Shown: positions 1,412-43,838 of the stretch, in pieces | Numbering within the stretch: the first letter of the stretch is position 1 | Layout: each line of letters starts with the position of its first letter | DNA from: Octopus vulgaris | Taxonomy: Eukaryota | Direction of reading: 5' to 3' | Length of the DNA stretch: 64,000 nucleotides | NCBI GenBank assembly: GCA_951406725.2 | Contig: OX597818.1 | Location: forward strand, 20,398,001-20,462,000 | Notes under the pieces: generated by a model | Database searches by the model: none | What the model was told of the DNA's origin: nothing | What the model saw: only the letters and a program-made list of their open reading frames with translations | Translations under genes and position numbers: made by a program

Positions 1412-1470
1412 ATTCTAGATCCCGGATTTCTGGCTATGCATTTGGGAATGCTTTGCCTCGTCAGTAGCAT
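1412..1470 (-). ncRNA. Type I hammerhead ribozyme motif
   Basis: Minus strand reads AUGCUA-CUGACGA-GGC(..GCAUU..AAUGC..)GCC-A-GAA-AUCCGGGAU-C|UAGAAU. Stem I has 5 of 6 pairs, stem III is near-palindromic, and the triplet is AUC. Confidence 0.7.
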
Positions 1471-3179
1471 ACACATAGAAGAGAAACATAAATACATATA
1501 TAATTTTATATATATATATATTGTGCCAGCTTGCCGCCTTACAGTAATAATAATAATAATACATATTCATATATTTGTAAAAGATCAATTTGAAATAGAA
1601 CAAATGAACAACCGATCTATTGGCGTGATCGAACAAACAATCATCTTGTATCTAAATGGCAGCAAATTTGCAATGAGAGATACAACGCAATAATGATAAA
1701 ATGTATTGTGAATTACGGCAAAAGCAAGACTTGAACTCAGAACTTGAAGGTAAGAGACTAAGTCTTGTTAGCTACTAAATCCTGTGAACTAATGTTTTTC
1801 TTTTTCTTATTTAGCTTTTCTTTTTTTCTGTGTGTGTTATGGTTTTACCATTCCTAAACGTCTAAAAGAAAATTTATGTCTTAAATAATAATTTATTTCT
1901 TTGAACTAGGCTATCACAAGATCAATTCCCATAGCGGAGGGATATAGGCGATAGAAGTTAATGGAATGAAGGTTTTTTTAATAGCGTTGAACTCATCACA
2001 TATTTTCCCACCGGTCCCTTAAAATAGATGTTAGGGACGAAATTTGAAGGATTTCATAATCCATTAGCTGCTCCTTGGGGTTTGATGTTACTAACACATT
2101 TCTTAAACATTAACAGTTTCCACTTGCTAAAGTTATTTCATTAAAAGTATTTTGTGATTATATTATATAAAACGATCCAAATGACTAGTTATTCGGTAGT
2201 ATTAAGTAATATTTTTAACACACAACTATTAACTTGCGAAAAGCTTAACACTTTCATACACATACAAACGAAAAAAATAAATAAAAGAAACACACAAAAT
2301 ATATCTGGTAATTATTTTCTCGACCCATGAGGGATGAAAAAAAGAGTTAATCCCACCGAATTTTAACCCAGAATATACAAATACGAAAATAAACATCTCA
2401 TTTTGTTTTGACTGCACGCAACATTTTCAGTCATATTTCCATCATTGTACACAACACAGAGAAACCACAGAAACCACAGCATAAATCACAAAGTACATAA
2501 AATAGCGCACTTCACATAGTCACAGGTTGCATCTAGACCACATACAGACCCCTTACAGAATGAAATAAAAATGCAAATTAAATAAAATGTTGTGTGGTCA
2601 CGCTAAGAGTTTAGTTTCTTCCTGTTGAGAAATCCATCCCTCACGGTTTCTGTCAGTGCATGCGCAATCATCTAAAAACAAACATCACTCAAGAAGACTA
2701 TGAATCAAGAAAGGAAACTCCTTGCCAGTGGTCCTCGGTACGTCACATATTTTAAAGATATAATTTAAGGTTTTAGAAATAGCAGTACCCTTTCAGCCTT
2801 TCAACAAATTTACAGATGTAAATTTCTATCGTCAGCTTCTCCTCTCAGTAGAAGTTGTAAAAGTCAATCCTCAATACTTCCAGTTACTATCACGCATCTT
2901 CTTTCGGCATGGCCTCCGGGTAGAGGAAAACCACTTGACCTTTCCGGTCAAATGAAAGTTGTGGAGTGAGATTCACGATAGACTCGACTTTAAGCCAGAC
3001 TCGACCAACACGTGACAACAATTGTTCGACAAAACACAATAAATCAACAAAACTCGGACACTGAACGAATGCGTGCATGGACATTTTGTTGTTCTGTATG
3101 CATCTCAGTTAACTGATGGTACTTTTGTGCCGGCAGAGTTTATCTCGAACTGGCAATGTTTCATGCTAAACCAAAGATT

Positions 3180-4090
3180 TCTGGAAGTTATTCATCGGCC
3201 CCAGAATAAGCCAACCAGCTAATTCTTGTCAGCACTCAGAGTTTCCTCGGAACACTATCATTTTTTCTCTCCACGAATCATCTATAGAATACTAAAGTGA
3301 AAGTTCTATTCGCTACATTGTCCAATTGACAAAGGACTGTGAGTTCCTGATAGCATTCAATGTGACGGGTGCCCAACATTGGTCTATTTGATCTAGAACT
3401 GTAACTCAGTCAAAGAGACTAGTTGTGGTAAACGTGCCAATCAGAGGGACCTGCTAATCTTTCAGGAATATCTGTAGATGTCGGGTCTTCAGGATATGAT
3501 GCTACGGTATACCGTACTTTCCGCACAGAGGCTGATAGCAGCATATGGACCTCCTAATCAGTAGAACGCATTCTTTTTACAAGAGGCTAAAGAGCAGCTT
3601 CAGTCTGGTAAGATGAAAACTAAGGTATATTTTGGATGAGAGTATGGGCCATTCTGTTCGTTGCCACGTCCCATCTCATATGAGCCTAAGTCAAACCCCG
3701 AGCAACTTGACCGACCTGAACTGCCAGCTGGCTGGTGGCATGGATTTGTCCCTCCAGATGTTCACTTATATGTCGGGATTAATTTTTGCTCCTGTCACCA
3801 CCCTATATTTATCTAGAATGGTGCTGATCACTCTTACCTCTGTGATGTCAGACACCATTGCAGTGACGTCATCCGCATTTGCTGCCACTACTTTCTCGCG
3901 CCCAAATTCAAAAGCGACACTTCTCAGCACCTACAGATTCTGCAGTAGGTAACTCAAGAATCAGTACATACATTATATATGAGAACACCCATGACAGTTC
4001 AAGTGCGTTACTCCAAAACAGTCTCAATAGATGCCTGTTTGTCTGATCACCACTTAAATGCCGTGATACATTAGCTGATATCAGTCTTCA
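3180..4090 (-). mobile_element. L1/Tx1-like LINE reverse transcriptase remnant
   Basis: Minus-strand translation gives VVAANADDVTAMVSD (YADD-like) and VKLLGV, interrupted by stops. Boundaries are approximate. Confidence 0.6.
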
Positions 4091-5739
4091 TTGTTTTACG
4101 ATACGTAGACGAAAACTCATCGTCTTATATTGCCGCGGTCTCAAACGATACAAAAAAAATCTATCGGTAAACGACGCCAAGAAAGTAAAATTGAGTCTAA
4201 AAGAATGTGGTACCCTGAAATGAAAATATCAATTGCCATTGAATTTTTCGGTAGTCTAATGACAAAAGGGATTCAACAGATGTTCCAAATAGCTTCTAGG
4301 AAAAAAAGTAAGAAAAACTATGAGTCAAACAGTTTCAGGAAATTGCACTCTTAGGATTAGCTAACATTCCGAAGTAGTTCTTTATGGAAAGTAACGCTCA
4401 ATTCTCTCGATGAAATACAACCGGTATATAATAAAGAACTTGAAAACAGCAACAGTGGTAACAATTTCTAATAATCTCTGATTTCTATAATCAACGGGAG
4501 CATGAGAGGCAAAATTGACCCCGGCAGTATTTGAAATGTAGTAATTATATACTACATTTCTTCTTTTTTTTTTTTTATTACTCTAGCGATTCTGCCAAGC
4601 ACCACACTTATATATAACAAAGTTTTCTAATATAGATACAAGATCACGTATTCCATTAAAATTGGTCCCAGTACATGACTGGTATTTCATAGACTCGGAA
4701 GGAATGCATCTGTGTGTGTGTGTGTGTGTGTGTGTGTGTGTGTGTGTGTGTGTGTGTGTGTGTGTGTGTGTGTGTGCGTGCGTGTGTATTTTTAAGGGCT
4801 AAGCCAGAGGAGGAAAGCCAGCGTTCTTGACCTTTTTCAAGGCATCGCTGATAGCTTGCAGGAAATCCTCTTGTAGACCAGAGTCCTGACCGGAATATCC
4901 GCAACCGAATAAATTATGTTAAAGCCTGACAAACCTTAGGTAGTGGTTTTCAGTTAGATGACTTATTAAGATTACAACCTACGAACAAGAATGGCCCTTC
5001 TACTGGGCTCCCTCACCATTTCTGTTTTCAGAATGACACTCACAGGTTTCGGTTGACCCAGGAGAGGCGAGTATATTGATGTTTTAATATTTACAGCAAA
5101 GACGGTCAATTAGTAGAGTCGTTACAGTGTTGGCTAGAATTCTTTGTGGTATTTGTTCAGACTCTTCGAGTCCCGAGTTCAAGCTCTACCAAGGTCAATG
5201 TTGCCTTTCATCCTTTCAGAGAGTAAAAAAAAAAACTACCAACCCACAGGGTGAGGATCGGTGTAACTATTAGGGAGACGGGCGAAATGCCTTGCAATAT
5301 CTGTACTTGCTCTTTACGTTCTGACAGCAACATCTGTGACAATACAAAATCTAAAATGTTTGAGCCCAAGACGGTGGCTTAATTTTATATAAATATCGGT
5401 GGCGTGCAGCAAGTGACTTCCAGATTTCTTCAAAAGAATATAGCCCAGTTCATAGTTACCTCTCTTCGGTATCGGGTGGTGAATACGACAAGAGCCAGTG
5501 AATGCTTATCCAGCGGTCAACATAAGGCGATTTAAACTGAAGATGGCATATTTTACATTAAGTGAGAATTTCTTCTTCACAGTAAACTGTACTGAAATTG
5601 CTTCTAGAAGTTCATTTATGTCCTAAACGTATACGAACAACCTAAAGTTTGCTTTTGTTTATATGTGTATGTATACACATATAAACGTTGTAAAGGTGCA
5701 TGTATATATGTATATATCTATATGTATGTGTTTGTCCAT

Positions 5740-6110
5740 CTTTACGTTCTGAGTTCAAATTCTACCGCGGTCGACTTTACTTTTCATCCTTTCGACGTCG
5801 ATAAATTGAGAACTCGTGGAGTACTGGGGTCGTTGTAAATCCCTGCTCCAAAATTTCAGGCCTTGTGCTTTTAGAAGAAAAGATGATGAAGCTGACGAGC
5901 TGCTAGAATTGTTAGCGTGTCGACCAAAATGCGTAGCAGCATTTTCTTCCAGTTCTTCACATTCCGAGTTCAAATTCCGCTGAGGTCGACTTTACCTTTC
6001 ATCCTTTCGGGGTCGATAAAACAAGTACTAAAATAAATTGTGTACTAAGGTCTATGTAATCGACTTAACCCGTTCTCCAGAATTTCGGTCTGTATGCCTA
6101 TAGTAGAATG
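5740..6110 (+). mobile_element. Two degraded family A SINE copies
   Basis: GAGTTCAAATT..GTCGACTTTAC.TTTCATCCTTTCG occurs twice. Confidence 0.7.
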
Positions 6111-43280: not shown

Positions 43281-43512
43281 TGTATGCATATATATGCATA
43301 TAATATATATATATATATATATGCATATAAAGAGTATATATATATATATATACATATCTGTATAATATATATATATGGATATATGTGCGTCTATATATAT
43401 ATATATATATATATATATATATATATGTAGGTCCCGGGTTGATTCGGGGTTAACCACAGTAAGTAAGGTACTCAATACATAGCAGAGTAAAATTAATTTA
43501 TTATATAGAAGG

Positions 43513-43563
43513 AGCTTCTACAGGACTAGTACTGTTTCATTCAAGAGAAATCTTCAGGAAGCT
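43513..43563 (-). ncRNA. Type I hammerhead ribozyme (mirror copy)
   Basis: Reverse complement of 43788-43838. Confidence 0.75.
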
Positions 43564-43787
43564 ATTTAACAAGAATTGTATTAGCATTTATACATTTAGG
43601 CAGGTTTAAAGGAGTGGTGGTGGGGGACTTTTTGGGGGTAGGCATAGCGCAAAATATCATACTTGGGGGAGTGGTCAAGGAGTCAGTGGTAAGTTAGATG
43701 AAAGAATAGATAAATAAAAAAAGTCCCCCACCACCACTCCTTTAAACCTGCCTAAATGTATAAATGCTAATACAATTCTTGTTAAAT

Positions 43788-43838
43788 AGCTTCCTGAAGA
43801 TTTCTCTTGAATGAAACAGTACTAGTCCTGTAGAAGCT
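43788..43838 (+). ncRNA. Type I hammerhead ribozyme
   Basis: AGCUUC-CUGAAGA-UUUC(UCUU)GAAU-GAA-ACAG(UACUAGUC)CUGU-A|GAAGCU, with a 6-bp stem I and 4-bp stem III. Predicted cleavage after 43832. Confidence 0.8.

What the first reader, a model, noticed from the sequence alone, without database searches (positions are those of the whole stretch)
1412..43838. Dense, heterogeneous set of hammerhead ribozymes in one non-coding window
Seen: type I HHR motifs of unrelated sequence at 1412-1470 (-), 30504-30538 (+), 37229-37273 (-), 38052-38144 (+), 41182/41437 (both strands) and 43513/43788 (both strands), plus a half-motif at 9332-9343. Most have a self-complementary stem III (ACGU, ACACGUGU, ACGGCCGU, ACAGCUGU, near-palindromic AUCCGGGAU) and lie within a few hundred bp of TA-rich microsatellites. 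Known: Penelope-like retroelements carry type I or minimal HHRs in their pseudo-LTRs, and palindromic stem III allows dimeric cleavage. Inference: many distinct microsatellite-targeting PLE or retrozyme-like families colonise this genome, which could fragment any read-through transcript.
Basis: partly seen in the sequence, partly recalled or inferred. Interest (0 to 1): 0.7.

Follow-up and report, generated by a model that had tools for sequence, protein, structure and literature searches.

The report
Penelope retroelement stubs carrying hammerhead ribozymes
This octopus DNA holds seven short, unrelated inserts with whole or decayed hammerhead ribozyme motifs, four of them mirror-image pairs ending at TA repeats; they are most likely truncated 3' ends of Penelope-like retrotransposons, a known and abundant kind in octopus, and the mirrored ones are predicted to fold into long hairpins rather than cut RNA.

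Summary
The motifs are at the stated coordinates, and the intact ones exceed chance: 6 descriptor hits at 4 independent loci against a mean of 0.17 in 100 shuffles. Of the seven loci, four are complete hammerheads (1412, 30504, 41 kb, 43 kb). 37229 lacks its core start, 38052 is damaged in both arms, and 9332 is a half. Four loci are head-to-head fold-backs (arms 83-100% identical) with the ribozyme pointing outward. One arm ends exactly at (TA)n, and in three of them the other arm carries a 65-150 nt extension. This matches published 5'-truncated, inverted Penelope-like (PLE) insertions. The 43 kb core matches Hydra-clade PLE hammerheads. The host is Octopus, where PLEs cover 6.8% of the genome in 190 families and a hammerhead-bearing, TA-targeting PLE is already published. 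No RT or GIY-YIG remnant was found here, so family membership is inferred. 'Fragmenting read-through transcripts' is unlikely: the fold-back hairpin outcompetes the ribozyme fold by 77-130 kcal/mol. Verdict: ordinary for this genome, new members of a known kind.

The parts
1412..1470 (-). Type I HHR, solo; long stem II with one 3' unpaired A; near-palindromic stem III; predicted cut 1418/1417. A short TA run lies on its 5' side (from 1507); its 3' side runs towards a Helitron remnant, not TA
9182..9403 (.). Old fold-back (arms 98 of 118 identical over the aligned span), palindromic centre near 9291, left arm abuts (TA)n 9130-9180; both arms stop before the CUGANGA half
9332..9343 (+). HHR 3' half (GAAA, palindromic stem III, A17) in the right arm; mutated mirror copy at 9239-9250 (-)
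30443..30636 (+). Solo 194-bp stub between TA runs; its 3' end joins (TA)n 30637-30697 directly
30504..30538 (+). Minimal PLE-type HHR (unpaired nt after the core, G10.1-C11.1, ACGU, U17); predicted cut 30534/30535
   Evidence: consensus features in PMC4209133
37182..37356 (-). Solo stub between short TA-rich tracts (approximate ends) holding a degenerate HHR at 37225-37271: stems intact, core lacks C3-U4
37521..38539 (.). Fold-back: arms 37591-38042 and 38076-38539 (412 of 449 identical); spacer 38043-38075 holds the CUGAUGA of the right arm; putative 70-nt tail 37521-37590 next to a short TA run; right arm ends in (TA)n 38526-38627
38059..38142 (+). Degenerate HHR of the right arm (core present, stem III mutated, 2 extra nt before GAAA); mirror 3' half with the intact palindrome at 37975-37990 (-)
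40972..41588 (.). Young fold-back inside (TA)n: arms 41122-41352 and 41360-41590 (229 of 231 identical), 7-nt spacer between palindromic hexamers, about 150-nt extension 40972-41121 on the left arm; TA arrays at 40828-40971 and 41587-41616
41444..41523 (+). Complete type I HHR, long stem II, 8-nt palindromic stem III, A17; predicted cut 41520/41521
41189..41268 (-). Mirror copy of the same HHR in the left arm
43427..43859 (.). Young fold-back inside (TA)n: arms 43492-43633 and 43718-43859 (142 of 142 identical), 84-nt spacer, 65-nt tail 43427-43491; TA arrays at 43288-43426 and 43858-44006
43788..43838 (+). Complete type I HHR of Hydra-clade build (U.U at the base of stem II, tetraloop, ACAG/CUGU stem III, A17, 6-bp stem I); predicted cut 43832/43833
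43513..43563 (-). Mirror copy of the same HHR in the left arm

Best explanation
These are seven unrelated short inserts bearing whole or decayed type I hammerhead motifs, four of them head-to-head fold-backs that abut (TA)n, and they are most likely 5'-truncated 3'-UTR/pLTR stubs left by several Penelope-like retrotransposon families, with the fold-backs predicted to make long RNA hairpins rather than self-cleave. Shown by the sequence: motif anatomy, outward orientation, asymmetric arms, TA junctions, and inserts that span the cleavage site. Inferred from published PLE biology: the element's GIY-YIG endonuclease nicks (TA)n, and its RT starts near the RNA 3' end, about 30-450 nt downstream of the ribozyme here, and stops early. 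A second truncated cDNA is joined 5'-to-5' at a palindrome or microhomology. It is primed from the other strand at a neighbouring start site, or arises by self-priming. That gives an inverted pair with a tail on one arm. Because every insert spans the cleavage site, the templates were likely uncleaved or religated RNA. The ribozyme is a passenger of the element's 3' end. It decays after insertion, as in the older copies, and is masked in any read-through transcript of a fold-back.
For: Four non-repetitive fold-backs with arms over 100 bp were found by self-BLAST (inverted pairs of multi-copy SINEs set aside). All 4 carry an outward HHR 3' half, with chance per arm 1.0-2.5% and product about 5e-8 under a post hoc criterion. 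All 4 have one end within 0-2 nt of (TA)>=8, against 0.7% per element and 1 of 22 SINE hits. Published PLE features match. Inverted 5'-truncated copy, tail at one end and (TA)n bias: PMC8557442. Head-to-head inverted pLTRs with palindromes at the junction and a tail on one arm: PMC3846280. Dual min-HHRs 100-700 bp apart on opposite strands, an unpaired nt after position 9, palindromic stem III and extreme within-genome heterogeneity: PMC4209133. Hydra-clade PLE HHRs mostly read CUGANGAU...UGAA, several with ACAG/CUGU stem III, target (TA)n and lie near the 3' end; Penelope-13_HM has an inverted 5'-truncated copy with the HHR on both strands. The 43 kb motif has the same build. Host Octopus (98% to an O. 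sinensis protein); Hydra-1_Obim is a (TA)n-targeting O. bimaculoides PLE with a sense HHR at 2403 of 2507; PLEs are 6.83% of O. vulgaris in 190 families. A purified PLE nicks and extends both strands of AT-rich DNA from two neighbouring RT start sites that define the tail, and uses unprocessed RNA (PMC11167929). Forcing the HHR fold in the whole element costs 77-130 kcal/mol. In transcript prefixes, 73 of 74 and 39 of 39 HHR nucleotides pair with the upstream arm.
Against: No RT or GIY-YIG match among 405 scanned frames (of 691 stop-to-stop frames of 45 aa or more; low-complexity frames left out), so no stub is tied to a coding PLE. None of five window motifs occurs in the Naiad/Chlamys/Hydra consensus files. 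The extensions (65, about 70 and about 150 nt) are longer than the 30-40 nt tails described, and I cannot prove they belong to the elements. The 1412 locus has TA on its 5' side, not its 3' side. Rfam support is weak. CUGANGA sites overall are not significantly biased upstream of TA arrays (11 of 38 vs 17.6%, p=0.058; 13 of 173 control patterns do as well). There is no other copy of any of the seven elements in the window.
Confidence: 0.88

Rival explanations
1. Non-autonomous, HHR-bearing retroposons (solo non-LTR retrozymes or SINE-like PLE derivatives) mobilised in trans by PLE proteins, rather than truncated ends of coding PLEs.
For: No ORF in any stub. A 2026 preprint argues that animal retrozymes are non-autonomous PLE derivatives and counts solo monomers. 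The solo stubs at 30443-30636 and 37182-37356 are 175-195 bp.
Against: Non-LTR retrozymes are defined by tandem 150-450 bp units with canonical HHRs, and no HHR here lies in a tandem array. Variable 5' ends and inverted pairs are the truncation pattern of coding PLEs.
Confidence: 0.12
2. One reading: the ribozymes are active in place and chop read-through host transcripts.
For: Four loci have complete cores. In isolation the HHR fold is within 2.2-6.8 kcal/mol of the free ensemble for those four. A natural axolotl HHR with a U.U pair at the base of stem II cleaves (22% in 1 h as a monomer; PMC7229834). The solo motifs at 1412 and 30504 have no antisense arm.
Against: Three of seven loci are broken. 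The fold-back arms sequester the motif. Single min-HHRs showed no cleavage and dimers little. The anole PLE HHR cut only with its protein, and no RNA-seq ends were seen at its site. No same-strand twin is nearby for dimer cleavage. No host exon was recognised, and transcription of the window is unknown.
Confidence: 0.1
3. The fold-backs are MITE- or foldback-type DNA transposons inserted at TA, and the ribozyme-like motifs are incidental.
For: They have long inverted arms, TA flanks and no ORF. Tc1/mariner elements are abundant in octopus, and a Tc1 remnant is in the window.
Against: The arms are asymmetric, with an extension on one side. The four elements share no termini or sequence. All four carry an outward HHR half. 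The same kind of motif occurs in solo stubs with no inverted repeat.
Confidence: 0.03
4. Chance matches, or fold-back assembly artefacts.
For: Rfam has no hit at gathering score. Half-motifs are not enriched. The 43 kb arms are 100% identical.
Against: 0 of 100 shuffles reach the observed count of full motifs. Arm identities range over 83, 92, 99 and 100%, as for real insertions of different ages. The ends sit exactly on TA arrays.
Confidence: 0.02

Closest known systems
Hydra-clade Penelope-like elements (for example Hydra-1_Obim of Octopus bimaculoides, Penelope-13_HM; Craig et al. 2021, PMC8557442)
   Same: Sense type I HHR near the 3' end; cores with an extra nt or a U.U pair at the base of stem II; near-palindromic stem III; (TA)n target; inverted 5'-truncated copy with the HHR on both strands.
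   Different: No ORF in these stubs. The five searched window motifs are absent from the published consensus files, and the Hydra-1_Obim HHR row differs from all the motifs here (by eye). The 41 kb HHR has an unusually long stem II. The putative tails are 65-150 nt rather than 30-40.
Minimal PLE hammerheads of Schistosoma (Cercyon) and other metazoans (Cervera and de la Pena 2014, PMC4209133)
   Same: 30504-30538 has every listed consensus trait. Opposite-strand pairs 100-700 bp apart, and heterogeneous single motifs attributed to truncated PLEs, were reported there.
   Different: Several motifs here have longer stem III palindromes (8-16 nt). The parts I read do not mention octopus.
Penelope elements of Adineta vaga (Arkhipova et al. 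2013, PMC3846280)
   Same: Head-to-head inverted pLTRs, a palindrome at the inverted junction, a tail on one arm, solo pLTRs.
   Different: Those are mostly attached to ORFs and some have target-site duplications. Here only the inverted ends remain, inside TA arrays.
Non-LTR retrozymes (Cervera and de la Pena 2020, PMC7229834)
   Same: Short non-coding repeats with type I HHRs.
   Different: Retrozymes are tandem direct repeats that yield circular RNAs. The elements here are solo or inverted.
Naiad PLEs of cephalopods (PMC8557442)
   Same: (TA)n target, inverted structures, old remnants in cephalopods.
   Different: Naiads lack canonical HHRs. Only the 9.3 kb fold-back shows a weak, untested by-eye likeness to the Naiad_Ovul ORF start (protein search negative).

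Membership tests
Type I hammerhead ribozyme | Core CUGANGA...GAAA...UH with stems I-III closing as type I | tested here: met
   Met at 4 of 7 loci (1412, 30504, 41 kb, 43 kb), two of them only with one unpaired or mismatched nt before GAAA; not met at 9332, 37229 and 38052
Type I hammerhead ribozyme | Match to Rfam Hammerhead_1 at gathering score | tested here: not met
   0 hits; best 14.8 of 34 bits. The 45-position model does not fit minimal or long-stem variants well (inference)
Type I hammerhead ribozyme | Self-cleavage | not testable with these tools
   Needs an in vitro assay
Penelope-like elements (EN+) | Single ORF with PLE-type RT and GIY-YIG endonuclease | tested here: inconclusive
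   None found in 405 of 691 frames scanned by Pfam. Absence is expected for short 3' stubs; no eukaryotic genome collection was open for finding full-length relatives
Penelope-like elements (EN+) | 5'-truncated inverted copy joined head-to-head | tested here: met
   4 fold-backs with the HHR pointing outward; 5' truncation is inferred from arms that stop inside the ribozyme at 9.3 kb and 38 kb
Penelope-like elements (EN+) | 30-40 bp tail on one end only | tested here: inconclusive
   One-sided extensions of 65, about 70 and about 150 nt in 3 of 4 fold-backs; longer than described and not verified against a consensus
Penelope-like elements (EN+) | HHR in the pLTR / near the 3' end, sense strand | tested here: met
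   Predicted cut sites lie about 27-460 nt from the TA-joined ends (coordinates)
Penelope-like elements (EN+) | Insertion into (TA)n without a discernible TSD (Hydra, Naiad, Neptune) | tested here: met
   5 of 7 loci end within 0-2 nt of (TA)>=8; 1412 and 37229 do not
Penelope-like elements (EN+) | Partial tandem (direct pLTR) arrangement of full-length copies | not testable with these tools
   No full-length copy in the window
Hydra clade of PLEs | RT/EN phylogeny | not testable with these tools
   No protein; only the HHR build of the 43 kb element agrees
Non-LTR retrozyme | Two or more tandem direct units, each with an HHR | tested here: not met
   No HHR inside any of the 126 TRF rows; no direct copies
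MITE / foldback DNA transposon | Symmetric terminal inverted repeats with shared termini | tested here: not met
   One-sided extensions, no shared sequence between the elements

The most novel reading that the evidence does not exclude
PLE fold-back stubs are a major, overlooked source of the near-perfect double-stranded RNA behind octopus hyper-editing. Here they are four per 64 kb, with arms covering 2.9% of the window and near-perfect arms 1.2%. The folded hammerhead itself may be the RT stop that triggers the inversion, since 3 of 8 arms end inside the predicted stem II and both 450-nt arms of the 38 kb element end at the ribozyme.
Probability: 0.15. Interest if true: 0.55.

Novelty: new member of a known kind. 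Interest (0 to 1): 0.22.

Why it matters
As it stands, little: it adds octopus examples to a well-described class and corrects the reading from 'ribozyme minefield' to 'PLE debris'. There are two practical points. Rfam-based annotation misses these motifs (0 hits at gathering score here; 235 Hammerhead_1 loci were reported for giant squid), so cephalopod HHR counts are probably underestimates. Short PLE fold-backs could also be mis-filed as MITEs, SINEs or miRNA hairpins (the top Rfam hit at 41 kb is a miRNA model). It would matter more if these fold-backs explain the unusually high dsRNA-forming fraction and hyper-editing reported for Octopus (PMC5625713), or if genome-wide breakpoints cluster at the ribozyme. 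The latter would bear on the open questions of what PLE hammerheads do and how PLE inversions form.

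Tried and rejected
Rfam, whole window: 0 hits at gathering score. At E<=10 the 150 rows shown of 408 were miRNA-type hairpin matches to microsatellites and inverted repeats, none a hammerhead. Local scans at 30.5 kb and 43.8 kb gave no hammerhead. Pfam on 405 frames found only Helitron helicase and Tc1 remnants plus sub-threshold noise, and no RT or GIY-YIG; the frame at 32842-33363 was not scanned. 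Six-frame reading of the stubs showed stops shared by both arms, so no ORF. A protein search with the 48-aa frame at 9326-9469 among longer proteins scored 0 of 5 candidates, which is weak evidence. A DNA pattern of the 30.5 kb motif gave 0 matches in the bacterial and archaeal genome collection, as expected and uninformative. Type II and III descriptors gave 0 hits. A relaxed core gave 3 extra hits (10691, 20409, 53372), in line with about 1 expected by chance, so they were rejected. A second GAAA-palindrome half at 10913 (-) has no core, no fold-back and only chance-level similarity to 9332 (score 39, shuffle max 42), so it was rejected. The orientation test on all 38 CUGANGA sites was not significant. 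Motif searches in the Craig 2021 supplement: 0 for the five HHR motifs and 0 for the four motifs of the two-copy family; an 11-mer from the 9.3 kb arm occurs 4 times, 2 of them in Octopus Naiads. An alignment of the window against published PLE consensus or protein sequences was not run, so degenerate PLE coding remnants may have been missed. The dimer-cleavage paper of Lunse et al. was not available, and I saw it only as cited in a review.

Full report
Context. The window is microsatellite- and SINE-rich animal DNA at about 38% GC. A Helitron helicase remnant at 424-1242 (-) is 98% identical to an Octopus sinensis protein, and its next named relatives are Octopus too, so the host is an Octopus species. 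Pfam scans of 405 of the 691 stop-to-stop frames of 45 aa or more (low-complexity frames left out) found only Helitron and Tc1 remnants above noise. No host exon was recognised.

Check of the observation. 1412-1470 (-), 30504-30538 (+), the 41 kb pair and the 43 kb pair have a full core and three stems. At 37225-37271 (-) the three stems survive but the core lacks C3-U4. 9332-9343 is a half. A type I descriptor gives 3 hits (2 loci) strictly, and 6 hits (4 loci) when one unpaired nt is allowed on either side of stem II. The means in 100 block-wise dinucleotide shuffles are 0.14 and 0.17, and none of the 100 reaches the observed counts (Poisson p about 3e-5 for four loci). Half-motifs alone are at chance level (14 vs 12.0). 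Rfam does not recognise the motifs: 0 hits at gathering score, 14.8 of 34 bits at 41441-41526, and nothing at the two other sites scanned.

Self-comparison shows four long fold-backs made of sequence that has no other copy in the window: 9182-9403 (83%), 37591-38539 (92%), 41122-41590 (99%) and 43492-43859 (100%). Inverted pairs of multi-copy SINEs and one 52-bp hairpin were set aside. All four carry the ribozyme, or its 3' half, in both arms, reading outward. The chance of an outward half-motif per arm is 1.0-2.5% by shuffling. All four have one arm ending within 0-2 nt of a (TA)>=8 array, against 0.7% for a random pair of ends and 1 of 22 SINE hits within 10 nt. In three of them the other arm runs on for 65, about 70 or about 150 nt before meeting TA. 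The junctions are palindromic or microhomologous: an 8-nt palindrome at 9.3 kb, palindromic hexamers around a 7-nt spacer at 41 kb, and T/A runs at 43 kb. The solo stub 30443-30636 also joins (TA)n at its 3' end. The 1412 motif does not: TA lies on its 5' side. The seven elements are unrelated to each other.

What it is. [quoted passage not shown] (PMC8557442; passages; supplement parts and searches) describe heavy 5' truncation, an inverted truncated copy at the 5' end, a 30-40 bp tail at one end and (TA)n targeting. Arkhipova et al. (PMC3846280; passages) describe head-to-head inverted pLTRs with palindromes at the junction and a tail on one arm. Cervera and de la Pena (PMC4209133; parts 1-2 of 4) report heterogeneous minimal HHRs with an unpaired nucleotide after position 9 and palindromic stem III, mostly single and attributed to truncated PLEs, including pairs 100-700 bp apart on opposite strands. 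The U.U pair at the base of stem II in the 43 kb motif looked like damage. It is in fact the commonest build in the Hydra-clade table, and ACAG/CUGU stems III occur there too; Penelope-13_HM is listed with an inverted copy and an HHR on both strands. An O. bimaculoides member, Hydra-1_Obim, targets (TA)n and has a sense HHR at 2403 of 2507 bp. An HHR that close to the 3' end explains why short stubs carry no ORF. Bonar et al. (PMC13282606; part 1 of 3, passages and a supplement search) give PLEs as 6.83% of O. vulgaris in 190 families, 31 of them recently active, and do not mention hammerheads. The stubs here add up to roughly 2.9 kb, about 4.5% of the window (my sum from the part coordinates), so the density is ordinary for this genome. 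What is not shown: no stub is tied to an RT/GIY-YIG ORF, no eukaryotic genome could be searched, and five window motifs are absent from the published consensus files. Membership is therefore inferred from structure, and the clade is suggested only for the 43 kb element.

How it most likely works. Shown by the sequence: orientation, asymmetry, TA junctions, and the fact that every insert spans the predicted cleavage site. From Frangieh et al. (PMC11167929; parts 1-2 of 4): a purified PLE protein nicks and extends both strands of AT-rich DNA and starts RT at two neighbouring internal sites that define the tail. It uses unprocessed RNA, and its HHR cuts only with the protein and is dispensable for insertion. 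Inferred for this window: each fold-back is two 5'-truncated cDNAs of one element joined at their 5' ends, and solo stubs are single truncated cDNAs. Two-strand priming and self-priming at a palindrome both give this shape. At 38 kb the arm with the longer 5' part lacks the putative tail, which fits two-strand priming better, but that rests on an unverified tail. Arm divergence orders the events from old (9.3 kb, 38 kb) to recent (41 kb, 43 kb).

Function in place. In isolation the four complete motifs lie 2.2-6.8 kcal/mol from the free ensemble, and their stem III palindromes of 8 nt or more can form intermolecular duplexes of -10 to -15 kcal/mol. An axolotl HHR with the same U.U pair cleaves modestly as a monomer (PMC7229834; passages). 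Some intrinsic activity is therefore plausible. But a transcript crossing a fold-back in either direction makes the antisense arm first. Forcing the ribozyme fold costs 77-130 kcal/mol, and in prefixes ending just past the cut site 73 of 74 and 39 of 39 ribozyme nucleotides pair with the upstream arm. Only the solo motifs at 1412 and 30504 escape this, and they have no same-strand partner nearby. The likelier product of read-through is long dsRNA. Porath et al. (PMC5625713; passages) found an exceptionally high dsRNA-forming fraction (4.4e-3) and hyper-editing in Octopus, and heavy editing of Penelope in lizard. Fold-back arms cover 2.9% of this window, 1.2% for near-perfect arms. Whether this window is transcribed is unknown.

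Results against my reading. There is no PLE protein remnant, Rfam support is weak, the extensions are longer than published tails, the 1412 locus has no 3' TA junction, and CUGANGA sites as a whole are not significantly oriented towards TA arrays (11 of 38, p=0.058).

Literature seen besides the above: bioRxiv 10.64898/2026.07.22.740005 (part 1 of 5); PMC6765202, PMC6962438, PMC8969392 and PMC9977147 (passages). Searches pairing octopus or cephalopod with hammerhead, octopus with Penelope and microsatellite, and octopus with editing and inverted repeats listed no paper devoted to octopus PLE fold-backs or their ribozymes. The library lacks most subscription papers and bioRxiv supplements were closed, so this is weak evidence of absence.

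Verdict. The feature is real but partly over-counted. These are new members of a known kind (PLE 3' stubs with hammerheads), ordinary for Octopus. Interest 0.22. The boldest reading not excluded, that PLE fold-backs are a main dsRNA source for octopus editing and that the ribozyme marks the inversion point, has probability about 0.15 and would merit 0.55.

Noticed in passing
window 35776-36010 (-) and 41617-41860 (-): Two copies of a roughly 200-bp repeat (alignment score 105 vs shuffle max 31). Both end at (TA)n and both keep CUGANGA, varying only at N7, but have no proper stem II/GAAA. Possibly a further PLE family with a half or decayed core. The second copy shares its TA array tail-to-tail with the 41 kb fold-back.
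   Followed up: partly
window 34028-34065 (+): CUGAUGA flanked by a 5-bp stem-I-like complement but no GAAA, followed by a T-rich tract and (TA)n about 130 nt downstream; a possible decayed HHR stub, not significant on its own.
   Followed up: partly
window 9301-9403 (+): By eye, a weak likeness to the ORF start of the published Naiad_Ovul/Obim consensus (shared 11-mer). If real, this fold-back is a Naiad end and its 'half-motif' may not be a ribozyme remnant. The protein search was negative.
   Followed up: partly
window 36697-36739 and 37360-37402: A 43-bp inverted pair (88%) with TA-rich inner ends brackets a SINE dimer and the 37.2 kb HHR stub, suggesting nested insertions into one TA site.
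   Followed up: no
window 424-1242 (-) and 42629-42844 (-): Helitron-type Pif1 helicase remnants; the first is 98% identical to an O. sinensis predicted protein.
   Followed up: partly
window 28443-29637: Decayed Tc1/mariner transposon: HTH and transposase fragments at 29044-29445 (-) between 32-bp inverted ends.
   Followed up: no
window 104-341, 16292-16687, 25122-25354, 36740-37157, 44511-44743, 52933-53341, 56166-56408 and others: A high-copy SINE-like family (22 local hits, 76-100% identity) with several inverted pairs under 1 kb apart (22939-23083/23751-23895); these would also form dsRNA.
   Followed up: no
window 44906-45208 (+), 32842-33363 (-), 56922-57271: Frames that look like C-terminal LINE remnants (recalled resemblance only; no Pfam hit for the two that were scanned, and 32842-33363 was not scanned).
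   Followed up: no
window 20549-20600: A near-perfect 52-bp palindrome (96%) with no ribozyme motif.
   Followed up: no
window 49819-49963: A perfect 15-bp tandem array, 9.7 copies.
   Followed up: no
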